From the sequence record PZ445447.1: a stretch of 64,000 bases of DNA. One strand, written 5' to 3'. Origin of the DNA: a phage. The position numbers were made by a program, and so were the translations under genes. Within the stretch, counting starts at the first letter, position 1. Every line of letters begins with the position of its first letter. This document shows, one piece after another, positions 9,748-63,788 of the stretch. The notes under the pieces are model-generated. The model ran no database searches and had not been told where the DNA came from. It saw only the letters and a list, made by a program, of their open reading frames with translations.

Positions 9748-11018
9748 TGAGCGTTATTCAACAATTCGCTAACCCGATGAATCCGCGTGAAACTGTTTTA
9801 CTGGCTCACGGCATGATTAAACGCGTCAGCATCAAGCCTATCAAAGGTGCTGATCCTACAACAGGTATTAAAACCACTGTGTGGCAAGGTAAGAAAATTG
9901 AGTCCAGCCACACCATCTCTTTACTGATTTCTGAACTGGATTCCTCTGATAACCTGCTTCAAGGTGGTGAAGAAGTCTGGATCAGCATGGGTGATAAACT
10001 GCTTAAACCGGGTCATCAAGACTCTGTCTCTGTTAAGATTGATGACAAGTGGGAAACCGTAACGCCAGGATGGATCGTAAATATCCCTTTGAAGGCAAAC
10101 GAGCATAACGGTAAGACCTACTACAAGGGCTCACTGGCTAAGATGGTTAAGCTGGGTGCAGGAGAGGCTCCAGCAGCGACTCAGCAGCAAAAACAGCAAC
10201 AAGGTGCACAATCACAAGGCCAGAAGCAGAAACCTCAGCAGAATGCCAATCAGGACGTTTTACGCATCTATGGCGATGTGACTCAGATTGTTGGCAACGT
10301 GGTTACTGTTAATGACCACAAGATTGGCGAAGGTGCTATGGTTGTCACTGATGAGCAGCTTAAAGACCTGGTGGTAGGTGGTCGTGTTGCAGCCATTGTT
10401 GACAAAGACACCGGAAACATTATCAGTGGTTTCAAAGCCTACCCACCTAAGGCAGAGAACGGCACTCAAGGCTCTGGTGGCAAGCGTAAATCCTCTTACG
10501 ACCCTATTGGTGTGGAGACGGGGCATAGCATCAATGCGTTGCAGATCATCCTGGATCGCGGGTTTAAGGTGGACGACCCACTAGGCGTGGCTAAAACACT
10601 GCACGTAGTCACCATTGAGCTTAAGAAAGAGTATGCTCAAGCCACCAACCGAACTGAAGATGAGGTAGGTGCCAGTGTCGGTAATGCGGTGTTGAACGCT
10701 TGTCGCCGTATTGACAAGAAAACGAAAGTTGATGATTTTGCAGTGGCAATTACTGCAGAAGCAAAAGATGTCTTGACTAATCTGGCTGAGCCGTTGTACG
10801 ATTGGATCAAGAACGGTGCTGGGTCCACTGACCATCAAGAACCTCAAGCTGCCAAACAGGAAGCTGCTTCACAGCAAAATACTGTAGACGCTCCTCCTGT
10901 AAATGACGAGGAAGATGACCCAATGGATCAGAATCCAGCACAGTATGACTTCTGTGATGACATACCTTTCGCTCCGGTGGGTTTGCAATATGGCAAAAGT
11001 AGAATCCACGCATTGTAA
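9747..11018 (+). CDS. putative single-stranded DNA-binding protein
   Basis: Q-rich flexible linker between two folded regions; acidic tail ending DFCDDIPF (bacterial SSB-tip-like) followed by 15 further residues; ATGA-coupled start. Confidence 0.5.
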
Positions 11019-11613
11019 GAGGTGCATCAAGTGTGGAGAGGTGAAAAACCTCTCCGAGTTCTACAAACATCCAAAGATGTCTGACGGTCATCTTAATAAG
11101 TGCAAAGAGTGTTGCAAGAAGGCCAGCAGGGAGGCTGACCAATTTTCCCACGACTCTTCAGAAAAAGGTGTGATCCGCGTGTTGTACAAGACTCAAAAGT
11201 GCAACAGTAAGAAGAGAGGTCACCCACCTCCGACTTACACCAAAAAAGAGTTTAAGGAGTGGCTATACCTAAACGGTTACAAAGAGTTGTATGATCAATG
11301 GGTAGCCAGCGGATACGACAAAAGGAAAAAGCCTTCTTGTGACAGGATAGATGATTTCAAAGGGTACTCTTTTGATAATATCCGTTTAACGACTTGGGGA
11401 GAAAATAAAGACAAGCAGACAGAGGATATTCTGTTACATAGAAGCACCAGCGGTAGACGGTGCAAAAATGTAAGGAGGTTGGACATGAATGGTAACGTTC
11501 TTAAAGAATGGGTATCCCACAATTCTTGCCGAAGAGAAACAGGGATATGTGTTGATTACTACATTCATGAAAAAATTCCAGCTCCCGATGGATACCTCTA
11601 TGAATACTTCTAA
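10990..11613 (+). CDS. putative HNH-type homing endonuclease
   Basis: N-terminal CxxC..CxxC zinc-binding segment; [18 protein letters not shown] motif; overlaps 3' end of SSB-like gene in another frame. Confidence 0.5.
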
Positions 11614-11628
11614 CATTTAGTTAACATA

Positions 11629-11656
11629 GCCCTGCCCGAAAGGGTGGGGCATTTTT
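11629..11656 (+). terminator. rho-independent terminator hairpin
   Basis: Same GCCCTGCCCGAAAGGGTGGGGC hairpin as 843-869, followed by T-run. Confidence 0.7.
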
Positions 11657-11675
11657 GTATAAGGAGATCTAAAAA

Positions 11676-12092
11676 ATGACATTAGAAGATATCATTGTTA
11701 AACCTGAGAACTATGACCAATACAACCTGTCAACTCAATCTGTAGACCTTGGATGCGCCACGGTCAGTGCGTGGCTGGTTAACGGAAAAGAGCTGGATAA
11801 ATGCTTAGAAGCTCACATGTCTATTAACAAGTTTCTGGATGAAAATACTCACTGGCTTGAGGGTGCAGGCGTATATGCTTCATGGTTGGAGAGTATGGGA
11901 TTCGACTACCAATCTGAAGAGGGGTGGTGGAGCTATTTAGCTATCTGCCCAGAGACGCTGCAATGCTTCATGAAATATTCTGAAGATTTGGAGTACCGGG
12001 CGGTGGTTGATAGTGCTATTGCCCGTTATAGCCGTAAACCTTTTTCCCACGACATTAAAACTGTGGAAGAATTTGTTGAAGTTTTCTGTTGA
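11676..12092 (+). CDS. hypothetical protein
   Basis: AAGGAGA RBS; 138 aa. Confidence 0.6.
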   Translation: MTLEDIIVKPENYDQYNLSTQSVDLGCATVSAWLVNGKELDKCLEAHMSINKFLDENTHWLEGAGVYASWLESMGFDYQSEEGWWSYLAICPETLQCFMKYSEDLEYRAVVDSAIARYSRKPFSHDIKTVEEFVEVFC

Positions 12093-12188
12093 CACAAGTT
12101 GAAAGGTGTGTAATTATAACTTCATAGAACGGGAGGACGTGATGAACGAAGAAAACTGGGATGTATAACTAACAGGAGGCCACTGCCC

Positions 12189-12386
12189 ATGATTTATAGA
12201 ATCCGTGTAAGAGAAGATGCACCAGGCTGTTACTTTGACTGGCGTGGGTGGTGGTTTCTCCACCCGATGGATGGACTCACAGATAGAATGCTGGATGCTG
12301 CCCTTTATACAGATACCGATATAGAATATAATCTCTATCTGAAGGACGGTATAGATAACGGCCTATTTGAAGCAATTCCTGTGTAA
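12189..12386 (+). CDS. hypothetical protein
   Basis: AGGAGG RBS; 65 aa. Confidence 0.55.
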   Translation: MIYRIRVREDAPGCYFDWRGWWFLHPMDGLTDRMLDAALYTDTDIEYNLYLKDGIDNGLFEAIPV

Positions 12387-12454
12387 GAAACTGTGATAGC
12401 CATGTTTTATGATCTTCCTGTAGCACCACCACCTGTTGAACCCGGAGAACTAAG

Positions 12455-12880
12455 ATGATCTATGAAATGCCAAAACTGATTCGTGATGATGCCCAAAACG
12501 CTCACACCATTATTATGGGCAAACGCATGGATATTATTTGTCATAAAGACTTCTGGGAAGGGAGTTACTTCACAGAGTATTTTGGTAAACTGGACAATGG
12601 TCTGCTGATCCAGTTCTACACCGATGCGGAAAACAACATTCACTGGGAGTTCGAAACTGAAGATATCCATAAACTTTTCACCTTCCTTGGTATTAAGGTT
12701 GAGGCCAAGTTTGAAGAAGGTGAGTGCGACGATTGTGGATTCTATGAGGTAACAGATTTCTACCTTCCAAGTGGTAAAAATCTCTACTACGAAAGCCATT
12801 TCGGCAACTCAAATATGCCACAGGGTTGGGATGAGTTTTTGGAAATTGCAGAAGAGGAGCTGGAATACCGTGATTATTGA
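12455..12880 (+). CDS. hypothetical protein
   Basis: GGAGAA RBS; 141 aa. Confidence 0.6.
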   Translation: MIYEMPKLIRDDAQNAHTIIMGKRMDIICHKDFWEGSYFTEYFGKLDNGLLIQFYTDAENNIHWEFETEDIHKLFTFLGIKVEAKFEEGECDDCGFYEVTDFYLPSGKNLYYESHFGNSNMPQGWDEFLEIAEEELEYRDY

Positions 12881-13328
12881 TACTGTAAAGGGAGATCTAA
12901 TCTCCATTTTCAAGAAAGGGTCAGGCCACATGATCCACGGTTGTAACTGCTTTCACACAATGGGTGCAGGTATAGCGAAAGATATTGCCCGTGAGTTCCC
13001 TCAAGCACTGGCAGCCGACAAAGAGACTGCTTATGGTAATCTAGACAAGCTGGGTATGTTTTCTTGTTGGGAGCATTTTGCCAAGGCCAGGGTCGTATAT
13101 GGAATCAACCTGTATACCCAGTTCTACCCAGGGCCCAATGCTGAATACTTCTCAATCATGAAAGGTTTTGAGCGAGTCAACGAGGTATTCAAAGGTATGT
13201 CATTGCCGTTCTACATTCCTAAAATCGGATGCGGTATTGGAGGTCTAAAGTGGGAACATGTAGAAGATGTAATTAATCTTGCAACCACAGATATTGATGT
13301 GGTTGTAGTAGAGTACAAAAAGTGTTGA
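12870..13328 (+). CDS. macro domain protein (ADP-ribose binding/hydrolase fold)
   Basis: Motifs IHGCNCFHTMGAGIAKDIA (NxxN...GxG-like) and IPKIGCGIGGL (FPAISTGVYG-like); GTG start inferred, overlaps upstream stop. Confidence 0.6.
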   Translation: MIIDTVKGDLISIFKKGSGHMIHGCNCFHTMGAGIAKDIAREFPQALAADKETAYGNLDKLGMFSCWEHFAKARVVYGINLYTQFYPGPNAEYFSIMKGFERVNEVFKGMSLPFYIPKIGCGIGGLKWEHVEDVINLATTDIDVVVVEYKKC

Positions 13329-13352
13329 CGACCATCTTCTGAGGTGATATAG
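13324..13352 (+). promoter_or_regulatory. sigma70-type promoter
   Basis: TTGACG, 17 nt spacer, TATAGT. Confidence 0.55.
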
Positions 13353-13579
13353 TTTCCACAACAACTAAGAGAGGAGAGCACTGTGGAGACTAAAATCTTA
13401 ATTCTTGCTGTGGTAGATACAACCGAAGGAGCTATATTCGAATCTGCAGGAGGGTATTTCTACCTACCATACGGAAAAAGAACTTCCGAGCCAAGTAAAG
13501 ATTCAATCCTCAAAGTGTTCCCGTGTGCTTTCTGGCTGGAGATTTTGGTATAAGATTGCAGATGATTTGGGAGAGAATT

Positions 13580-13774
13580 ATGAGAAACAAGAAAGAACTT
13601 TACTCTGGTGAGTGGATCAACGATCAACAGGTGGGAGAGGTAACCTGCTTCCGATGTTTTACCAGGTACAATCTTAAAACTGCACCAAAAAGTGTTCCAA
13701 AGACTGATGGTTATTATATAAAAGAACCTCATTGCCCAAAATGTAAATGCCGATTGTACTGGAGCAATCTGTAA
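13580..13774 (+). CDS. hypothetical zinc-ribbon protein
   Basis: GGGAGAG RBS; CFRC...CPKCKC cysteine pairs; 64 aa. Confidence 0.55.
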   Translation: MRNKKELYSGEWINDQQVGEVTCFRCFTRYNLKTAPKSVPKTDGYYIKEPHCPKCKCRLYWSNL

Positions 13775-13778
13775 GAGG

Positions 13779-13806
13779 TTGACATCTGAAAACTGCAGTG
13801 TATAAT
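13779..13806 (+). promoter_or_regulatory. sigma70-type promoter
   Basis: TTGACA, 16 nt spacer, TATAAT. Confidence 0.65.
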
Positions 13807-13837
13807 ATACGCATAAACTAACAGAGAGCGATGTATT

Positions 13838-14029
13838 ATGGTAATTTTTAACCGGGATGGTATCATAGTTAGACAGCACCCGTTCCTTGAATACTATCAA
13901 ATTGAGCAATGGTGCTACGGGGATTGCAGTCACTCCTATGGGCAAAGTTGGGGATATCGTACAGTTTTTGAATCAACAGACCTTGACAAAGTAAGACAGA
14001 AAGTTTTAGAACTTATTAACAACAAGTGA
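13838..14029 (+). CDS. hypothetical protein
   Basis: Downstream of promoter 13779; 63 aa. Confidence 0.5.
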   Translation: MVIFNRDGIIVRQHPFLEYYQIEQWCYGDCSHSYGQSWGYRTVFESTDLDKVRQKVLELINNK

Positions 14030-14038
14030 GTATGATAT

Positions 14039-14371
14039 ATGGTAACATTAGAAAGACGTAAAGCTATCGCTGCCACACTGGCAGACATCTTTTGGGATTG
14101 TAATTTAAAATCTACCCGAAATTGTGGCGCATCTGTAGATGTATTATTCCCACGGCCTACTATTGTTGCAATGGGCAACCTTCTTGATGTGGTATATGGA
14201 GCATGGGACAAGGAAGGTGGATTCTATATCTGGCAACCTGACTACGGGACTTGGAAAGAGGTTAGTGGTTCTACGGACTTCACTCCTGCAGTGGCTAAAA
14301 TGGATGGCTGGAAAATCTATGTCGGTAACGACATGGAACTGAAAGGCGAAATTGTTTACTGGTTACCTTAA
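14039..14371 (+). CDS. hypothetical protein
   Basis: ORF track; weak RBS. Confidence 0.5.
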   Translation: MVTLERRKAIAATLADIFWDCNLKSTRNCGASVDVLFPRPTIVAMGNLLDVVYGAWDKEGGFYIWQPDYGTWKEVSGSTDFTPAVAKMDGWKIYVGNDMELKGEIVYWLP

Positions 14372-14391
14372 GAAAGTGCAGGGGATAAAGT

Positions 14392-14637
14392 ATGAACAAA
14401 GGGTGGACATTTGTAGACGGCGTTGAAAACATGCCTCTAGGAAAGTATATTGTAGCCATGGCAGATGAGAATGGCAAGGTTGATTTCGGAGCTTGCGAGA
14501 TTGTTCTTGCAGGATCTGGTGACCATGTGCACAAAACTGGGATAATTAACGGTCATTTCTACTTTGATTACAACCCTGTTGTGGCGTATATGGCTATGCC
14601 AGAGTTAGAGCTCCCAAAGGAGGGTGCAGATGTTTAA
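14392..14637 (+). CDS. hypothetical protein
   Basis: AGGGGA RBS; 81 aa. Confidence 0.55.
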   Translation: MNKGWTFVDGVENMPLGKYIVAMADENGKVDFGACEIVLAGSGDHVHKTGIINGHFYFDYNPVVAYMAMPELELPKEGADV

Positions 14638-26761: not shown

Positions 26762-26780
26762 TTTTTTAACTGAATTATCA

Positions 26781-26805
26781 AGGGGCTTAGGCCCCTTTCT
26801 TTTTG
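26781..26805 (+). terminator. rho-independent terminator
   Basis: AGGGGC-TTAG-GCCCCT then TTCTTTTTG. Confidence 0.7.
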
Positions 26806-26806
26806 T

Positions 26807-29273
26807 CTGCTCTTCCCCCTACCATAAACGGCCCTACCTGGCAAGTGGAATAATTGACGAGCCATCAATCCCACACACTGTACAAACATACATATAAAAT
26901 AACTATTGCATAATTTTTCATTGTGTGGTAGCAGGGCCATTTTTACACGTTTTTCCTTCCAAAATTGCACGTAATGCAGCATTTGCACAAAATTTAACCT
27001 GATGCATATATTCAATAGCTTGTCAACAACTAAAAATCTTTATAAGTCATACACTTACATAACTACAAAAGCGTTTTCTACGTGAAAAATCGAGTATAAC
27101 TATAGCCGCCAGATCTCAGAATTTACGTACGCTCGCCATTCTATAGCCTGCTAAGCATTTATTCCAACCATAGAATAACGGAATAGTCAATACCTGCATA
27201 AAATAATTATTCGTGTAAACTGCATAACATAAATCGGCCCAGGTGTCAACATTTTTCGTAAACAGTCTGGAATTGTCACGTTAGGTTACCATAAGCAGAG
27301 AAATCTTCAGTCGTCTAATGTTTACTGTACGTTACTATATTAACTGAAATCATTAGATGACTAATAGAAAGATAAGAAATAATTAACAATACAATTATTT
27401 TATCTGTAACAATAAGGCAACTATGCAAACGAATGGCATGGCGCGACGGAGTCGCGACATAATATAAAAGCAGTAACCATCACCCCCGTGATAGTTTGTC
27501 TGCAAACTATTAATCAGATCATAGTTGCCTTGTATTTAGTTAATCATGACATAACAAGCAAGGCAACTATAGATCTGCTAATAGTTGCCCTGCTTTTATA
27601 TTATGTCATGCTAATTATAATCAGTGCGATTATTGTCATGTATAATTATTGTCATGCAAACGAATGGCATGGCTGATTATCGGTGTGTAAACAGTCAATC
27701 ATGTAAATGGTTAGCATGTGAACAATCAGGAATGTAAACAATCCAGTGTGTAAACTAATAGGTGTGTAAAAGTGTCATGTTGTGTCAGTTAGGTCACATT
27801 ATGTCAGACAAGTTTTTCTCCTCTTTGTCAAGTGCTGCATGAAAAATTTACAAGCTTGTATGGTAGCATTTTTGCGGCCCTGTTTACATTCAGGAGTGTA
27901 TGTATAATCCTTGGTGTGTGGGCGTTTAGACGTCTGGACGGTAAGAAGTCTGCAGGTTAATATCTAATCTATCGGCTGCTAACTATATCCCACACAAATA
28001 GTAAGAAATATAATTGTTATGTGCGTAAACAGTAACCCATGTTATCAATCCCTGTATGTATCGCCAGTGGTGCGCATAATGGGTATTATGTTAAATTGCC
28101 CGTAATGATAAAGGTTCTCACAATGATAGGTATTCTCATTCACCCTCACAAAATAGATTGCAAATGTTGTGCCACTGTGTGAACGGCCTCACCTATTAAT
28201 TTGCCTCACTGCCTCGATATTTGAGAATTATTATAAGAATGAGAAGTATTCCCATTTCGTCCGCCTGGCAGCACTCCAGTCGCTACGGCTCATGACAGGG
28301 CAGCACTCCTGTAGGTCAGGTCAAAATCGTGGTAGAATTGGGCCTGTTCAGATATTTCTGGCTGACTCTTCAGGTCTGTGTGGGAAAAGCCAACCTCTCC
28401 GGCGGGGCAGGGGGTCATGACGGGAAAATTGCAGGTCAATTAAAAAATTTACGTGGTGTATGAAGCGCTCTTCAGGTAAGGCAGGTATTAGAGGATGAAA
28501 CCCTCTTCAGGCAATGATATTTGTGGGTGTGATATTTGCTGGAAAGCCAGATATGACGGGACTCCCGGCGGGGATGGGGTAGTACAGACAGGGAAAATAT
28601 GGGGATGTAGTTGGGTAAATTGATCAGGCAGGTAGAGTATGGATTATGTTACAGGTATGTTAAATATGGAGGTTGAATATCTGTAAGATTTGTGTGTAAA
28701 ATCAAAGACTTAAGTGGTGTTGTGGTATTTTCTATAAATAATTCAAGTTTAATAGGTAATATTTGTCTCTATCCACTTTGTGTGGTAAACAGATTCAGAT
28801 GAAATTGGTTTACAAGTGTATACATAATATACAAATTAAAGATACAAGAAACCCCCCTCCCCTTCGGCTACCATTCACCTTTTCCTCTGACTGGTACTTA
28901 AACACTTATTCAGACTCTTCAGGTTATCACCCATATATCATATGGCAGTGACTGGTGTCCTCCGGCCCCTCTTTCGTCACCCGTCCGCTTCGCCATGCTA
29001 ATGCCATAGCCAATGGTTCGGTTGTTCACCCTGTTCACTCAGGTGTATCTCCATACCCCTTCAAACCGAAGAGAACAGAAAACCCGAATTACTCGGTAAA
29101 AGAAAAGAGAAGAACTTAATTTTATCAAGATAGGCAAGAATGTCAAGGCATGACTGCTCACTAAACAAGCAAACAGTCATGTGTGGGAGGTAAGTGATTG
29201 TGGTTGTAGGAAATTTAGTTGAAAGATGTGTTATAGGTGCTTCCAGCACTTTAGCCGGGTAGCTAATTGTGTG
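26807..29273. other. large non-coding, repeat-rich region between convergent gene blocks (candidate origin, packaging or regulatory hub)
   Basis: No ORF with credible RBS; AT-rich; inverted repeats around 27425-27610 (ATAGTTGCC in alternating orientation); five TGTAAA(C) repeats 27680-27770; CTCTTCAGG four times 28366-28930. Confidence 0.5.
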
Positions 29274-29489
29274 TCAGTCCAGCGGTTCATCCTCTACTTC
29301 ACTGAAATCAATGTTCATGGTCTCTTCCCAACCATCGATCTCAGCACAAGAGTGGAGTTCTTTAGGGTTTACTCCCAAAGCCTCAGCAACAGAGTCTATA
29401 TTTAACACCTCTGGCAGGTATGATTCATCGAATTCAAGGTAAATCAGGCCACGAGTGTTGTCAGCTCCACCAAATATCTCTATCTTCAT
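29274..29489 (-). CDS. hypothetical small acidic protein
   Basis: GAGGAG RBS; starts MKIEIFGG like several array members; 71 aa. Confidence 0.55.
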   Translation of the reverse strand: MKIEIFGGADNTRGLIYLEFDESYLPEVLNIDSVAEALGVNPKELHSCAEIDGWEETMNIDFSEVEDEPLD

Positions 29490-43265: not shown

Positions 43266-44471
43266 TCAGCAACCACAACTTCCGTAGTGCTTAACCCGTT
43301 CTATAACTTCCGCTTGCTTACCTTTATTGTAAGGACGGGAGTTTGGACTAGACAGGTACCCGGATACACGTCTGATCACACTGATCGTTCCCTCTTCATG
43401 GTTTCCACACTCTGGGCATACGAATCCCTTAGCTGTTGCACTGAACTCACCAGAGAAACCACACTTAAGACATTTATCCACAGGCTGGTTGATACCAAAA
43501 TACATAATGTGTTTATATCCGAAATCAACAAGAGCTTCCAAAGCATCTAAGTTGTTTTTCAGATTTGGTGTCTCTACGTATCCGATGTTGCCACCAGAGG
43601 ATATCATAGCAAAACCTTCTTCATACTCCCACTTATCAAAAGGAGAGCTATTGATCCATACTGGCTGATGGAAACTGTTGGTGAGATATTCATGCTCGTG
43701 CTTCAACACTTCAGGATATTCACGATCCAGACAGGTTGCAGCTTTATAGCATAGACTCTCAGAAGGGGTGCCGTACAAACTAAACGCTAGTCTACTTTTC
43801 TTCTTGTATCGCTCACAAGCATCTCTCATGTGCTGAAGTATTCCAAGAGCTAAAGCCTTGTCACCCTCTCTGCCCAAAATCTGACAGGTTTCATACACAC
43901 CAATATACCCAATACTGATGGAAGCGTACCCGTCATAGAAGAGTTTATCAATACTCTCTTCAGGATCCAGGCGAGCAAGAGCGCCTTCACACCACATGAT
44001 AGGGTTCTGCCCTGCCTTAGTGCCTTTCAGACGGTTAACCCTTACAAGGTGAGCTTCATATGCCAAATCCAGATACTCGTCAAGAACGGAAAAGAAATCA
44101 ACACCTTCCGTCTTAGCTTTTGCCGCAATCATTGGCAGGTTAAGACTAACAACACCCAAGTTGAATCTGCCGAGGTATTTCTCCTCACCTGTTTCCAAGT
44201 CATTGTATTTGCTAAGAAAACTCCGGCAACCCATGCTCGTTACTTTACCATCTGTCGAGCCTGTCACTTTACGATTTAGTGGAACAGAAACAAAGTCAGG
44301 ATAAATCCGCTCTGCAGAGCATTCCAGAGCTAATCGTTTCAAATCATAGTTAGGATCTCCAGGGTTCATGTTGACACCCTCTTCTAGGAAGAACAACACT
44401 TTAGGGAACACAGGTGTGATACGTTCTTCACCAAGACCCATTTTGTGGACTTTCAAGTAGTTTTTGGTAAT
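43266..44471 (-). CDS. nrdD: anaerobic ribonucleoside-triphosphate reductase, exon 2 (C-terminal part)
   Basis: C-terminal CxxC pairs and glycyl-radical-like RVSGYL; exon start placed right after intron terminal G (inferred). Confidence 0.7.
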   Translation of the reverse strand: MTKNYLKVHKMGLGEERITPVFPKVLFFLEEGVNMNPGDPNYDLKRLALECSAERIYPDFVSVPLNRKVTGSTDGKVTSMGCRSFLSKYNDLETGEEKYLGRFNLGVVSLNLPMIAAKAKTEGVDFFSVLDEYLDLAYEAHLVRVNRLKGTKAGQNPIMWCEGALARLDPEESIDKLFYDGYASISIGYIGVYETCQILGREGDKALALGILQHMRDACERYKKKSRLAFSLYGTPSESLCYKAATCLDREYPEVLKHEHEYLTNSFHQPVWINSSPFDKWEYEEGFAMISSGGNIGYVETPNLKNNLDALEALVDFGYKHIMYFGINQPVDKCLKCGFSGEFSATAKGFVCPECGNHEEGTISVIRRVSGYLSSPNSRPYNKGKQAEVIERVKHYGSCGC

Positions 44472-45325
44472 CATTCTACCAAAGACTGAGGTGTCCAGAC
44501 CTAAACTTAATGTGATGAATGGAGTCTGCTGTCTCCTCCCTGTGTTTCCACAGGGCCAGACTATCTCTTACTCTACTTCAATAAGATAATAACCCTTTAT
44601 TGTGAGATGCTTACCTTCGGCATTTCCTTCGATAGCCCTATGAACGTTACCTACGTTCAAATTTAAGGCTTTTGCACAGGCATAGAGTGAAGGATATTCA
44701 CCCACCAAGGTTTTACCTTTGTATGCCTGCACTTTCCTATAGCACTTACCTGGACAAAGTCCTGTTCGGAAAGCATGTCTCTTATTATCTTCCGGCAAAA
44801 CCCACTCTAGGTTAGACGGATGATCATTCAATGTATTGCCATCTTTATGATTCACTTCCCAGTTTTCAGGGTCTACTGGGACATCTGGCAAACAATACAA
44901 GGCAACAACCCTTGAGGTTTGGATTCGAATCTTTTTGCCTTTGTGGTTGAAAGAGTACATATAACGGCGTTTAACATGCTTGTTACCTTTTCCATAACCT
45001 CCCCACAATATTGGGTGCAGCATTCCACGTTTTCCGTATACGTTTCCAACCTCATCAATCACATAGTTTGATTCTTCACCATTAAGAATGATCTTTTTCA
45101 TAGAGCCTCTCCATTTCGAAGTTAGCATTTCAACTAACCCCTACACTACTTGGTTCAGAAATGTTTGTCAAGCATCTCTGCCTTTCGTTAGTCGTTACAA
45201 CCGTTCCAACTCCTGTAAGAACTAGTCACGGGATTGGCATAGCTTTCGCCTTAGCGTTCCCCGTTAGCCGGATTTACCGACCCCTCTTATGAGGTTAGGA
45301 GAGTTTTACAACGGCCAGTTTGTTA
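44472..45325 (-). mobile_element. group I intron interrupting nrdD, carrying an HNH homing endonuclease ORF
   Basis: Begins UAA right after exon 1; contains AACGGGGAAC and CAAUCCCGUGACUA elements resembling the T4 td/nrdD intron core as I recall it; ends AAUG before exon 2. Confidence 0.7.
44568..45128 (-). CDS. HNH homing endonuclease (intron-encoded)
   Basis: NHKDGNTLNDHPSNLEWV HNH motif; same strand as nrdD. Confidence 0.8.
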   Translation of the reverse strand: MLTSKWRGSMKKIILNGEESNYVIDEVGNVYGKRGMLHPILWGGYGKGNKHVKRRYMYSFNHKGKKIRIQTSRVVALYCLPDVPVDPENWEVNHKDGNTLNDHPSNLEWVLPEDNKRHAFRTGLCPGKCYRKVQAYKGKTLVGEYPSLYACAKALNLNVGNVHRAIEGNAEGKHLTIKGYYLIEVE

Positions 45326-46186
45326 ACCGTTGACAGAAGTTAACGTATTGATTTGATAGAGCAAAGTCTGCATGCTGTCAAATACGTCTTTATCTGTCAT
45401 TTGCATTGCAACAGTCTCAGCATCTGGCAACCAATGTTCCTGGCAAAATTTAAGGTTCTTCTCATAGGTCGCTTCAGCATACTGTGCCAGATAATGATCA
45501 ATATGGCTCATAGTCTGACCACCATATTGAGCACTAGCTACTGCACTAGAGATTTGGCTAAGGATTGTTGTTGCAACCCCTATTGACTTCGGCTTACTGA
45601 CATGGGCGTTACCAATGTTGAATCCGTTTTCCAACATATCTGGATAATTTACCAAACAACAGTTTGTTAACGGACTGATCAAGTAGTCAAGATCATGCAC
45701 ATGGATGAAGCCCCTATTGTGCTCTTCTGAGACACGGTCTGGCAGGATCTGTGTTGATGCAAGGTGTTTGCTAAGGATGCCTGCAAGCAGGTCACGATGA
45801 GTGTGTACATGATTGGTAGGCTTATTTGCGTTTTCTTTTGTAAATTCATCACAAGTTCGATCCAAGAAGCCACTAATATCTGCAAGCAGTTTTCCACCTG
45901 CCTCTCTGTTATTATCTCTTGTCTGTCTATACTGGATGTATTCTCTGGCTGCACATTTTAAACCCATATCCATAAGAGCGTCTTCAACAAGGATATGGAT
46001 ATTTTTTACAGAGATCGTGCACTGATCGGTTGGTAGATTGTTAGCAACAACTTCATTAACCGCGCAGGCGATCCGGTAAGCTTCTTCTTCAGTATGTCCA
46101 GACTCAAGTAAGGCGGACTCTGCCGCCTTGATCACCTTAATTCCGTTATAGAACTCTTCTCTACCGTCCCGTTTTACAACTTTCAC
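45326..46186 (-). CDS. nrdD: anaerobic ribonucleoside-triphosphate reductase, exon 1 (N-terminal part)
   Basis: ATP-cone-like N-terminus MKVVKRDGREEFYNGIKV; ORF ends ...TSVNG with stop at intron start. Confidence 0.7.
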
Positions 46187-62299: not shown

Positions 62300-63013
62300 T
62301 TAAATATACTCTGTTACATCCTTGAAGCTCGAAGGCTTCATAATCTTACCTTTACTGTCAAGGAATATAATAACTTTATTACCGTTGTAGAACTCCTCTT
62401 TAGCAACGAAACCTTCGTAGCGACCACCAAAACGACGCTCAAGATCTTCAATCTCTAACTCTATGAGCAATTCAGTAGACATATCTGCACTGGCACCGTG
62501 AGAATATCGTAGATGGTTGATCCGTGCAAACTTGCTGTCATTAGATTTGAGAACCTTCCGCATCATCCCACACACATCGCCGCGAAGCTGGAACAGCAAA
62601 GCTGTTGACAACTCCGCTAAGCGGTAAGCTGACGCTCTTTGCTTGGATGTGTTTTTCGCAGCGATCAGTGTATCATAGAACTCACCGATCTTGAACTTAA
62701 GACCTCGTGGATTATCAAACAGGTTTGACCACTTTTCGTGATTATCATTAACAAGATAAGCGGCATAACTTGTGACAACGTGAAGATCGCAGGCCTCTTT
62801 TAGCAGGTGATCTCCACCATCACCTTTCTCCAGCTCTTCCAAAACCTCATTGAACTCTTCCTCAATGAAGCTAAGCTGTAATTCGAATGGTGTGTATGAT
62901 TTTTTCACTTTAGCTGCCACACGGTTCCAGTTTTCCACCCAGTTGGCAGACCAAAGGTAGTTTTCAGGCTGAGACAGTTTTTCCAGGTTGTCGATCAGTT
63001 TAGTATTCAGCAT
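62300..63013 (-). CDS. hypothetical protein
   Basis: 237 aa; EE-rich helical N-terminal segment; no confident family. Confidence 0.55.
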   Translation of the reverse strand: MLNTKLIDNLEKLSQPENYLWSANWVENWNRVAAKVKKSYTPFELQLSFIEEEFNEVLEELEKGDGGDHLLKEACDLHVVTSYAAYLVNDNHEKWSNLFDNPRGLKFKIGEFYDTLIAAKNTSKQRASAYRLAELSTALLFQLRGDVCGMMRKVLKSNDSKFARINHLRYSHGASADMSTELLIELEIEDLERRFGGRYEGFVAKEEFYNGNKVIIFLDSKGKIMKPSSFKDVTEYI

Positions 63014-63026
63014 TAAAGGTCTCCTT

Positions 63027-63788
63027 TTAAAGTTCCATAAAGTTTTCTACGGTCTCAATGAATGTTTTATCAGAGAAAGCGTCAACCGCCCCGTTAAACC
63101 AAACCGGGATGCCGCGATCCTCGTACTGGTAAATATCACTACGTGAAATGCCATTCTCCTCTAGATGCTGTGAGTCGTATTTGTTAACGATCAGCAGTTT
63201 GGTGCCCTTATTGCAGGCAGGGAATAGCTCCCAGTTAAAATTGATAACTGTGTTGGAACACCCTACAAGGATAACCATATCATTGCTTGTAAGAGAAGTC
63301 AACAGGTCATACATGTCTGTATACTTCGGAGCTACTTCTCCGAAGAACACCACATTAGGTTTAACCCAGGTATACTTTCCTGCATCTACCTCAGAGTATC
63401 CAATGTCCTTAATGACGTCACTTCCTTCATCGTCCTCATAGACTATTTCTGGCAAATACCCGTGAACATGTAAAATATCTTCATGTTTTACACCAGCACG
63501 CTCCAGCAAATCATCTACATTGGTGGTAAGGTTGATCACACGACCAGACCAGCGGGAATACCACTCAGCGATCCGAAGATGTGCAAGGTTAGGCTCAACA
63601 CCGCCTAGAGCTACACGACGTGCATTGTAAAAGTCATGCACCTTGTAGTAGTTCTTGGCAAAGGTGTGGATGTTGCACACCTCATCGATGCTGAAATTCT
63701 CCCACATTGCAGTGCTACCAGATCGGAAAGTGGGAATACCAGATTCAGCGCTCAAACCAGCACCGGAGATAATAATCAGTCGTCGCAT
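63027..63788 (-). CDS. SIR2-family (sirtuin-like) protein lacking zinc ribbon
   Basis: GAGLSAESGIPTFRSG, TTNVDDL, catalytic-His HVHG, VVFFGE; no CxxC pairs. Confidence 0.75.
   Translation of the reverse strand: MRRLIIISGAGLSAESGIPTFRSGSTAMWENFSIDEVCNIHTFAKNYYKVHDFYNARRVALGGVEPNLAHLRIAEWYSRWSGRVINLTTNVDDLLERAGVKHEDILHVHGYLPEIVYEDDEGSDVIKDIGYSEVDAGKYTWVKPNVVFFGEVAPKYTDMYDLLTSLTSNDMVILVGCSNTVINFNWELFPACNKGTKLLIVNKYDSQHLEENGISRSDIYQYEDRGIPVWFNGAVDAFSDKTFIETVENFMEL

What the first reader, a model, noticed from the sequence alone, without database searches (positions are those of the whole stretch)
12870..13328. Macro-domain protein in the replication block; together with the SIR2-like gene suggests an ADP-ribose/NAD axis
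The protein carries the two macro-domain glycine-rich motifs, so it probably binds or hydrolyses ADP-ribose derivatives. The same genome has a zinc-ribbon-less SIR2-like gene at 63027-63788. In bacteria, sirtuin and macro-domain pairs form reversible ADP-ribosylation modules, and host defences use NAD depletion or ADP-ribosylation, so this could be counter-defence or host modification.
Basis: partly seen in the sequence, partly recalled or inferred. Interest (0 to 1): 0.65.

Follow-up and report, generated by a model that had tools for sequence, protein, structure and literature searches.

The report
Phage macrodomain, likely anti-DarT2 enzyme
The gene is a real macrodomain enzyme of E. coli phage MaxBurger (Bas54), a close relative of phage T4 Tk.4/AdfM, which protects T4 from a bacterial toxin that ADP-ribosylates DNA; the proposed partnership with the phage's SIR2 gene is not supported.

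Summary
The window is 100% identical to Escherichia phage MaxBurger (Bas54, Vequintavirus). Positions 12870-13328 (+) are the annotated CDS bas54_0092. It encodes a 152-aa single-domain macrodomain: Pfam Macro above cut-off, PHROG_335 at E 7e-60, and an AlphaFold model with pLDDT 96.9 whose best structural matches are TARG1, Poa1p and DarG. It is 39% identical over its full length to T4 Tk.4, and 68% identical to the gene at the tk.4 position in a Krischvirus. A 2025 preprint named Tk.4 AdfM because a T4 tk.4 knockout becomes sensitive to DarTG2. The same family also holds Adpp, an ADPR-1''-phosphate phosphatase that works with the NARP1 NAD-rebuilding operon. Bas54 has no NARP1 genes, and its protein groups with T4 Tk.4 rather than with Adpp (81-84% bootstrap). 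The whole family replaces DarG's catalytic lysine with an invariant glutamine, so its chemistry is unproven. The SIR2 gene at 63027-63788 does lack the zinc-binding cysteines. However, it is a CobB/SIRT5-type sirtuin, lies 50 kb away on the other strand within an RNA-ligase/kinase/MazG cluster, and occurs without the macrodomain in T5. My verdict is an ordinary new member of a known counter-defence family. The SIR2 axis is not supported.

The parts
12870..13328 (+). bas54_0092: a 152-aa single-domain macrodomain protein of the Tk.4/AdfM-Adpp family (PHROG_335). Key residues are H23, N26, G32-A-G34, N80, Y82-T83-Q84, and P117 with G120/G122/G125.
12854..12859 (+). GAGGAG Shine-Dalgarno-like hexamer, 10 nt upstream of the GTG start.
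   Evidence: read from the sequence
12455..12880 (+). bas54_0091: a 141-aa protein of unknown function (PHROG_8157). It overlaps the macro gene by 11 nt and is probably co-transcribed, but it is not a conserved partner. Its Krischvirus homologue lies about 9 kb from the macro gene.
12304..12332 (+). Sigma-70-like promoter match (TTTATA-17-TATAAT) upstream of the 0091-0092 pair. It is one of many plus-strand promoter-like sites in this block of short genes (21 found against 10.9 +/- 3.2 expected). This is a consensus match only.
63027..63788 (-). bas54_0207: a CobB/SIRT5-type sirtuin without zinc-binding cysteines. I considered it as a partner and do not regard it as part of the macro gene's function.
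62300..63013 (-). bas54_0206: a MazG-like nucleotide pyrophosphohydrolase. It neighbours the sirtuin in the predicted RNA-repair cluster, whose RNA ligase, kinase and phosphoesterase lie just beyond the window end.

Best explanation
bas54_0092 is the Vequintavirus counterpart of T4 Tk.4 (AdfM), an orphan, antitoxin-like macrodomain hydrolase.

Proposed mechanism. The gene is made from the block of short early/middle genes next to the replication genes. The enzyme binds ADP-ribose and cleaves the bond at the ribose C1''. Its most probable substrate is ADP-ribose placed on thymidines of single-stranded phage DNA by host DarT2 toxins. Removing it would keep phage replication going in DarTG2-carrying E. 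coli. The gene is dispensable in hosts without that defence.

Shown: the fold, family membership, conserved ligand-binding residues, non-essentiality on K-12, and the anti-DarTG2 phenotype of the T4 homologue.

Inferred: that the Bas54 protein has the same phenotype; that the activity is removal of ADP-ribose from thymidine (not shown even for T4 Tk.4); and the timing of expression.
For: - 39% identity over the full length to T4 Tk.4 (E 6e-44).
- 68% identity to the gene sitting at the tk.4 position (regB - vs.1 - vs - macro - tk) in Krischvirus G37-3.
- NJ bootstrap: Bas54 plus the Krischvirus protein 100%; Bas54 plus T4 Tk.4 to the exclusion of the tested Adpp 84%, and of nine NARP1-associated macros 81%.
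- A T4 tk.4 knockout is sensitised to DarTG2, and tk.4 was the single hit of a transposon screen (bioRxiv 10.1101/2025.11.20.689424).
- In PADLOC and NCBIfam the only models hit are DarG (E 9e-13 and 5e-12).
- The AF2 model has pLDDT 96.9 and pTM 0.91. Its top PDB matches are TARG1, Poa1p and the DarG macrodomains, with TM up to 0.77.
- The residue matching DarG N22 (N26 here) is invariant in the family. The matching Asn was needed for full activity of the phiKZ macrodomain on thymidine-ADP-ribose DNA (PMC13309987).
- No Adps or Namat gene exists anywhere in the Bas54 genome, so the family's other documented role cannot operate here.
- T5 lacks any macro homologue and is DarTG2-sensitive (PMC11825919).
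- bas54_0092 is non-essential on K-12, with 31 of 31 TA sites hit, as expected of a conditional counter-defence gene.
- It lies among the replication genes.
Against: - No experiment on Bas54 and DarTG2 was found.
- DarG's catalytic lysine (Taq K80, equivalent to TARG1 K84) is replaced by an invariant glutamine (Q84) in this whole family, including T4 Tk.4. The DarG-type mechanism therefore cannot simply be transferred.
- De-ADP-ribosylation of DNA has not been shown biochemically for T4 Tk.4. The authors say only that it 'seems likely'.
- The one family member assayed in vitro (Vibrio phage Gary Adpp) is an ADPR-1''-phosphate phosphatase. The Poa1p residues studied by mutation (H23, S30) are matched here by H23 and T30.
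- The tree does not cleanly separate Bas54 plus T4 from one NARP1-associated macro, phiAbaA1 (42%).
- In the one Bas54 comparison I saw between a clinical isolate and the laboratory strain, bas54_0092 showed no depletion (log2FC 0.42, q = 1). Whether that isolate carries DarTG is unknown.
Confidence: 0.55

Rival explanations
1. Free-metabolite enzyme: an ADPR-1''-phosphate phosphatase like Adpp or Poa1p. It would convert ADPR-1''P, made by RES-type NAD+ phosphorylases such as aRES or by RNA 2'-phosphotransferase chemistry, into ADP-ribose, acting on a soluble molecule rather than on DNA.
For: - It belongs to the same family as Gary Adpp (33% identity, 64 bits). Both proteins retrieve almost the same set of phage records, 2734 and 2705.
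- Adpp dephosphorylates ADPR-1''P in vitro.
- Poa1p is among the top structural matches. Poa1p H23, N26 and S30 align in register with H23, N26 and T30 here.
- Iyer et al. 2022 argue that phage macro domains mostly target soluble ADPr derivatives.
Against: - Bas54 has no Adps or Namat. In the Adpp study the phosphatase only worked as part of the three-gene operon, and inactivating any of the three genes abolished counter-defence.
- The protein is closer to T4 Tk.4 (129 bits) than to Adpp (64 bits), and it groups apart from the tested Adpp in 84% of bootstraps.
- Positions 24 and 83 differ between the two groups: HG...YTQ here and in T4, HQ...YGQ in most NARP1-linked proteins.
Confidence: 0.2
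2. Finishing enzyme of the phage's own sirtuin-based RNA-repair pathway. The sirtuin (bas54_0207) would remove 2'-phosphates from cleaved tRNA onto NAD+, as KptA/Tpt1 does, giving Appr>p and then ADPR-1''P. The macrodomain would then clear that product, as Poa1p does in yeast.
For: - Iyer et al. 2022 predict a KptA-like role for exactly this V5-type sirtuin cluster.
- The macro is Poa1p-like.
- In other phages, family members lie near polynucleotide kinase or RNA ligase genes: Vibrio F86, a Felixounavirus and Gary.
Against: - The two genes are 50 kb apart on opposite strands.
- T5 has the sirtuin but no macro.
- T4 has Tk.4 and, to my knowledge of its annotation, no sirtuin or KptA. Macro-positive Escherichia records (970) far outnumber sirtuin-positive ones (376).
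- The sirtuin's RNA-repair role is itself only a prediction.
Confidence: 0.08
3. One reading: a reversible protein ADP-ribosylation module, or an O-acetyl-ADP-ribose axis. The SIR2 protein would write ADP-ribose (or make OAADPr) and the macrodomain would erase or consume it, as in bacterial SirTM-macro operons.
For: - Both domains are present in one genome.
- Macrodomains of this structural class (TARG1/OARD1) can deacetylate OAADPr and remove protein ADP-ribose (molecule names).
- Sirtuin-macro two-gene systems exist in bacteria and in actinophages.
Against: - The genes are not adjacent, and their distributions are disjoint.
- The sirtuin's best matches are class III CobB/SIRT5 deacylases, with the Tyr/Arg motif conserved. 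No SirTM structure is among the 60 best PDB matches shown.
- The literature states that this viral sirtuin clade is not coupled to a macro gene.
Confidence: 0.05
4. A binding-only protein or sponge for an ADP-ribose-derived immune signal, for example one from Thoeris-type TIR systems, without catalysis.
For: - Macro domains bind such signals in Thoeris II effectors.
- The family lacks the DarG/TARG1 lysine.
Against: - The pattern of invariant residues around the distal-ribose site (H23, N26, Y82-T83-Q84) is what one expects of an enzyme.
- The assayed family member is catalytic.
- The T4 phenotype is against DarTG2, which uses no diffusible signal.
Confidence: 0.04

Closest known systems
T4 Tk.4 = AdfM (anti-DarT factor Macrodomain; HIDEN-SEQ preprint 10.1101/2025.11.20.689424)
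   Same: Both are single-domain proteins of about 152-155 aa, 39% identical end to end, with the same motifs HGCNCFHTMG and NLYTQF.PGPN. The Bas54 protein is 68% identical to the tk.4-position gene of Krischvirus. Both are non-essential on K-12.
   Different: The genomic position differs: after the ssDNA-binding protein and replication genes here, between vs and tk in T-even phages. No phenotype has been measured for Bas54. The MaxBurger record calls it 'hypothetical protein', while the phage V5 record already calls its homologue 'Tk.4 conserved hypothetical protein'.
Adpp, the NARP1-associated ADPR-1''-phosphate phosphatase of Vibrio phage Gary (preprint 10.64898/2026.01.28.702374)
   Same: Same protein family and fold, 33% identical, with the Asn, the Gln and the two glycine loops shared.
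   Different: Adpp lies between Adps and Namat, and Bas54 has neither gene. Adpp has HQ..YGQ plus an insertion after the Gln. It branches apart from Bas54 plus T4 in 84% of bootstraps.
DarG antitoxin macrodomain (Thermus aquaticus and M. tuberculosis; PDB 5M31, 5M3E, 5M3I) and the chimallivirus 'AdfM' (phiKZ gp104, Asesino gp217; PMC13309987)
   Same: Same structural class (TM 0.77), the same conserved Asn, and a GGL.W-type second loop. DarG is the only profile hit in PADLOC and NCBIfam.
   Different: It is a separate lineage: 21-40 bits across the two groups against 55-129 bits within them. The catalytic Lys (PTK) is replaced by Gln (YTQ). There is no C-terminal DarT-binding domain and no adjacent darT. 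The name AdfM has been given independently to two different macrodomain lineages.
Yeast Poa1p (PDB 6LFQ-6LFU) and human TARG1/OARD1 (PDB 4J5Q-4J5S)
   Same: These are the top structural matches. Poa1p H23, N26 and S30 align with H23, N26 and T30 here.
   Different: Identity is only 21-26%. TARG1's K84 and D125 correspond to Q84 and G124 here (my alignment, using the TARG1 sequence from memory). The biological settings differ: tRNA splicing by-product and protein or DNA ADP-ribose removal.
Bacterial SirTM-macro ADP-ribosylation operons (Rack et al. 2015, from my own knowledge; mentioned in PMC9503650)
   Same: A sirtuin and a macrodomain are encoded by one genome.
   Different: The two genes are not an operon (50 kb apart). 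The sirtuin is class III-like, the macro is TARG1/Poa1p-like, and no co-distribution is seen.

Membership tests
Macro domain superfamily (Pfam PF01661) | Profile match above the curated cut-off, covering the domain | tested here: met
   26.2 bits against a cut-off of 22; profile positions 1-117 of 118.
Macro domain superfamily (Pfam PF01661) | Macro fold with the conserved Asn and the two glycine-rich ADP-ribose-binding loops | tested here: met
   AF2 model pLDDT 96.9. 190 PDB macro-type matches at E<=0.001. N26, G34, G120 and G122 are invariant.
T4 Tk.4/AdfM family (PHROG_335) | Full-length sequence homology to T4 Tk.4 | tested here: met
   39% identity over 153 columns, E 6e-44. PHROG_335 at E 6.8e-60.
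T4 Tk.4/AdfM family (PHROG_335) | Groups with Tk.4 and tk.4-position genes rather than with other macro lineages | tested here: met
   68% identity to the Krischvirus gene between vs and tk. Bootstrap 100% with it, and 81-84% with T4 Tk.4 against NARP1-linked macros. Separation from phiAbaA1 is only 42% and from Felix-like proteins 60%.
T4 Tk.4/AdfM family (PHROG_335) | Needed for growth on DarTG2-expressing hosts | not testable with these tools
   Shown for T4 only. No Bas54 data were found.
DarG antitoxin (NCBIfam NF048014; PADLOC DarG) | Macrodomain similar to the DarG N-terminal domain | tested here: met
   E 4.8e-12 and 8.8e-13, the only hits in those libraries. The score of 45.8 bits is far below the equivalog cut-off of 250.
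DarG antitoxin (NCBIfam NF048014; PADLOC DarG) | Catalytic lysine (Taq DarG K80, in the PTK motif) | tested here: not met
   It aligns with Q84 (YTQ), which is invariant in 70 homologues.
DarG antitoxin (NCBIfam NF048014; PADLOC DarG) | C-terminal DarT-binding domain and an adjacent darT gene | tested here: not met
   The protein is 152 aa and matches only profile positions 2-144 of 338. The neighbouring genes are small phage ORFs.
Adpp / NARP1-AP | Encoded within two genes of Adps and Namat | tested here: not met
   tblastn of Gary Adps and Namat against all 136 kb of Bas54 gives no hit better than E 0.87.
Adpp / NARP1-AP | ADPR-1''-phosphate phosphatase activity | not testable with these tools
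   It is homologous to the assayed enzyme (33% identity). The equivalents of Poa1p H23 and S30 are present as H23 and T30.
SirTM-macro ADP-ribosylation module | Sirtuin and macro genes adjacent or co-transcribed | tested here: not met
   12870-13328 (+) against 63027-63788 (-); separate gene blocks.
SirTM-macro ADP-ribosylation module | The two genes travel together across genomes | tested here: not met
   T5 has the sirtuin at 57.6% identity and no macro at E<=1. There are 2734 macro-positive and 1010 sirtuin-positive records, and the sampled hit lists overlap little. A full co-occurrence table could not be computed.
SirTM-macro ADP-ribosylation module | Sirtuin of class M | tested here: inconclusive
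   The best matches are CobB, SIRT5 and archaeal Sir2, and the class III Tyr/Arg motif (FYNARR) is present. Class M signature residues were not checked directly.
Sirtuin (Pfam PF02146), for the gene at 63027-63788 | Rossmann NAD-binding motifs and the catalytic His; Zn-binding Cys pairs in canonical members | tested here: met
   95.3 bits. GAGLSAESGIPTFR, TTNVDD, HVHG and VVFFGE are present. The four Zn-binding cysteines are absent, so 'zinc-ribbon-less' is correct.

The most novel reading that the evidence does not exclude
Tk.4-type phage macrodomains may be a lysine-independent, glutamine-based lineage of C1''-specific ADP-ribose hydrolases with double duty. The same active site would remove ADP-ribose from DarT2-modified thymidines and dephosphorylate ADPR-1''P. 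One small gene would then answer both DNA-ADP-ribosylating and RES-type NAD-phosphorolysing defences. In Vequintaviruses it might also clear the by-product of the sirtuin-based RNA-repair cluster.
Probability: 0.15. Interest if true: 0.6.

Novelty: new member of a known kind. Interest (0 to 1): 0.3.

Why it matters
It assigns a probable function to a gene still labelled 'hypothetical protein' in MaxBurger/Bas54. Bas54 is one of the few phages with a saturated transposon library, so the prediction can be tested at once: insertions in bas54_0092 should be lost on a DarTG2 host.

It also flags two points of general use:
- The name AdfM now covers two distinct macrodomain lineages, the DarG-like one with the catalytic Lys in chimalliviruses and the Tk.4/Adpp one with Gln.
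- The Tk.4 family spans two documented counter-defence roles, so annotation by homology alone ('phosphatase') is unreliable.

It removes an attractive but unsupported sirtuin-macro story.

Tried and rejected
- NARP1 link. I searched the whole Bas54 genome for Adps and Namat and found nothing, so the NARP1-AP role is rejected for this phage.
- Sirtuin-macro pair. I rejected it on distance, strand, sirtuin class, the literature and the T5 counter-example.
- bas54_0091 as a conserved partner, since it overlaps the macro gene. Its homologues exist only in Vequintavirus, where they are adjacent, and in Krischvirus. In phage kaaroe the two genes are about 9 kb apart. Rejected.
- Defence-type sirtuin (DSR, ThsA, SIR2-HerA). 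There is no PADLOC hit.
- A phage-encoded ADP-ribosyltransferase that the macro might reverse. None is annotated among MaxBurger's 227 genes. I did not run a profile scan of all ORFs.
- Technical failures. A first bootstrap run timed out. A second produced invalid distances for the most distant pairs. I replaced both.
- The supplement of Iyer et al. is not held.
- ICP1 AdfB turned out to be an unrelated 77-aa DarT binder.
- The CmdTAC and Thoeris II papers held nothing on this family.
- I did not fetch the whole T4 genome to test for a sirtuin. That point rests on knowledge of the T4 annotation and on the record counts.

Full report
**What the sequence is.** A 2.8-kb stretch around the finding is 100% identical to Escherichia phage MaxBurger (BASEL phage Bas54, MZ501093.1, genus Vequintavirus). 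It is 96-99% identical to dozens of rV5-like phages. Record position equals window position plus 66024. Positions 12870-13328 (+) coincide exactly with CDS bas54_0092, annotated 'hypothetical protein'. Relatives label the same gene 'macro domain protein', 'Poa1p-like family protein', 'phosphatase' or, in phage V5 itself, 'Tk.4 conserved hypothetical protein'.

**Gene boundaries.** The start is GTG, preceded by GAGGAG at 12854-12859, and the gene overlaps the upstream gene by 11 nt. Homology to T4 and Krischvirus proteins starts at residue 1, which fixes the start codon.

The protein passes Pfam's Macro threshold (26.2 against 22 bits, nearly the whole profile). It matches PHROG_335 at E 7e-60. 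Both glycine-rich loops are present. Across 70 homologues the invariant residues are G24, N26, C27, M31, G34, A36, D50, N80, Y82, T83, Q84, P117, G120 and G122. An AlphaFold2 model built on that alignment is very confident (pLDDT 96.9, pTM 0.91). Its best PDB matches are TARG1, Poa1p, the DarG macrodomains of Thermus aquaticus and M. tuberculosis (TM up to 0.77), and SCO6735. Sequence search of the PDB gave the same set. The gene sits just downstream of the primase/helicase, the DNA polymerase and a putative ssDNA-binding protein. This block has more plus-strand sigma-70-like sites than chance (21 against 10.9 +/- 3.2), which suggests early transcription but does not prove it.

**What family it belongs to.** It is 39% identical over its full length to T4 Tk.4 (E 6e-44). 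It is 68% identical to a Krischvirus protein encoded between vs and tk, which is the tk.4 position. A 2025 preprint showed by transposon sequencing and a clean knockout that T4 tk.4 is required to resist DarTG2, and named it AdfM. The authors only infer that it removes ADP-ribose from DNA. The same preprint made a saturated transposon library of Bas54 itself. There, bas54_0092 is non-essential on K-12 (31 of 31 TA sites hit) and was not linked to AdfM.

**A second documented role in the same family.** A 2026 preprint found macro proteins inside 15% of phage NARP1 operons. It showed that the one from Vibrio phage Gary (Adpp) dephosphorylates ADPR-1''-phosphate. This lets NARP1 rebuild NAD+ after attack by the RES-domain defence aRES, and all three genes were needed. 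I took Adpp sequences from its Table S1. Adpp and the Bas54 protein retrieve practically the same 2700 phage records, so they are one family. The Bas54 protein scores 129 bits with T4 Tk.4 and 64 bits with Gary Adpp. In NJ bootstraps, Bas54 plus T4 exclude the tested Adpp in 84% of replicates and nine NARP1-linked macros in 81%. One NARP1-linked protein (phiAbaA1) is not cleanly excluded, at 42%. The decisive contextual test is that neither Adps nor Namat exists anywhere in the 136-kb Bas54 genome.

**Relation to DarG proper.** In PADLOC and NCBIfam the only models hit are DarG. However, the protein is not a DarG:
- It has no C-terminal DarT-binding domain.
- There is no adjacent darT gene.
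- The catalytic lysine (PTK in DarG, ITK in TARG1) is replaced by the invariant glutamine of a YTQ motif.

[quoted passage not shown] It belongs to the true DarG lineage and keeps the Lys. Cross-lineage scores are 21-40 bits, against 55-129 bits within each lineage. So two different macrodomain lineages carry one name, and the chemistry of the Tk.4 lineage is open. The Poa1p residues probed by mutation (H23, S30) align in register with H23 and T30 here. This keeps a phosphatase-type activity plausible.

**The SIR2 gene.** The ORF at 63027-63788 (-) is a genuine sirtuin (Pfam 95 bits; PHROG 'Sir2' at E 3e-109). Its best matches are E. coli CobB, SIRT5 and archaeal Sir2. It keeps GAGLSAESGIPTFR, the class III FYNARR Tyr/Arg motif, the HVHG histidine and VVFFGE. 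It has no cysteines where CobB binds zinc. It matches no defence-sirtuin model. Its neighbours are a MazG-like pyrophosphohydrolase and, just past the window end, an RNA ligase, a polynucleotide kinase and a phosphoesterase. This is exactly the cluster Iyer et al. 2022 described for phage V5 and predicted to act in RNA repair. They remarked that here the sirtuin is not coupled to a macro gene.

**Why the sirtuin is not the macro's partner.** It lies 50 kb from the macro gene on the other strand. Sirtuin homologues occur in 1010 phage records, mostly T5-like, and the macro family in 2734, mostly T-even-like. Evenly spaced samples of the two lists barely overlap outside rV5-like phages. T5 itself has the sirtuin (57.6% identity) but no macro at E<=1. 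T5 is DarTG2-sensitive, which fits the macro, not the sirtuin, being the relevant factor. Both genes are individually dispensable on K-12.

**Mechanism and confidence.** The most likely reading (0.55) is that bas54_0092 is an orphan antitoxin-like hydrolase. It would cleave ADP-ribose at C1'' from thymidines of single-stranded phage DNA modified by DarT2, protecting replication.

Shown:
- The fold.
- Family membership.
- Conserved binding residues.
- Dispensability on K-12.
- The T4 phenotype.

Inferred:
- The same phenotype in Bas54.
- The DNA substrate.
- Early expression.

Rivals:
- A soluble ADPR-1''P phosphatase (0.2).
- A Poa1p-like finishing step for the sirtuin RNA-repair cluster (0.08).
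- A non-catalytic signal sponge (0.04).

**Novelty.** This is a new, untested member of a known and very widespread phage family. The gene was already recognised as a Tk.4 homologue when phage V5 was annotated. The modest added value is a directly testable prediction in a phage with an existing transposon library, the note that DarG's lysine is absent from the whole Tk.4/Adpp lineage, and the name collision around AdfM.

Noticed in passing
window 26762-29274: A 2.5-kb stretch has no annotated gene, between the plus-strand gene block (ending with bas54_0134) and the minus-strand block (starting with bas54_0135). The HIDEN-SEQ preprint reports that no transposon insertions are tolerated there. 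It has the lowest GC of the neighbourhood (0.35-0.37 at 27000-27999) and no Rfam match. A knot of repeats lies at 27400-27700: the motif ATAGTTGCC(T/C)TG in direct and inverted copies, a perfect 18-nt inverted repeat at 27456-27473 / 27590-27607, and a perfect 20-nt direct repeat 231 nt apart. This could be a replication origin or iteron region.
   Followed up: partly
window 10990-11613 (ORF from 10903): A putative homing endonuclease gene (bas54_0088) is inserted right after, and overlaps the end of, the 423-aa putative ssDNA-binding protein gene. It is absent at this place in the close relative JLBYU08. A strong terminator-like hairpin follows at 11629-11650.
   Followed up: no
window 43266-45973, with 44568-45128 inside: The anaerobic ribonucleotide reductase gene is annotated as joined from two pieces, with a homing-endonuclease ORF inside, so it is probably an intron. 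The terminase gene outside the window is interrupted in the same way.
   Followed up: no
literature; loci L004 (T4 tk.4), L014 (Asesino gp217): The name AdfM was given independently to two non-orthologous macrodomain lineages. T4 Tk.4 has Gln at the catalytic position and only genetic evidence. Chimallivirus phiKZ gp104 and Asesino gp217 keep the DarG-like Lys and have biochemical evidence. Scores between the two lineages are only 21-40 bits.
   Followed up: yes
search results for window 11600-14400: Sixteen GenBank records named 'Campylobacter phage' (host C. jejuni) are 96% identical to this E. coli Vequintavirus region. Some are fragments or unannotated. They look like mislabelled or contaminant assemblies.
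   Followed up: no
window 13779-13806: A perfect sigma-70 consensus (TTGACA-16-TATAAT) lies in front of the small ORF at 13838. Another good match with an extended -10 TG, at 13325-13353, overlaps the macro gene's stop codon. This fits a block of many short, independently promoted early genes.
   Followed up: no
L009 (Vibrio phage Gary), L005 (Vibrio phage F86), L006 (Felixounavirus): In several unrelated phages the Tk.4/Adpp-family macro gene lies within a few genes of polynucleotide kinase, RNA ligase or phosphoesterase genes. In Felixounavirus it is fused to a C-terminal extension of about 105 aa (261 aa in total). There may be an RNA-repair connection for part of the family.
   Followed up: partly
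L015 (Escherichia phage 1-6af, Kuravirus) and one search hit list: A separate set of about 450 phage records carries true DarG-like macrodomains with the PTK lysine. They include E. coli Kuraviruses, jumbo phages and Bacillus phages. These are further candidate anti-DarT2 factors of the other lineage.
   Followed up: partly
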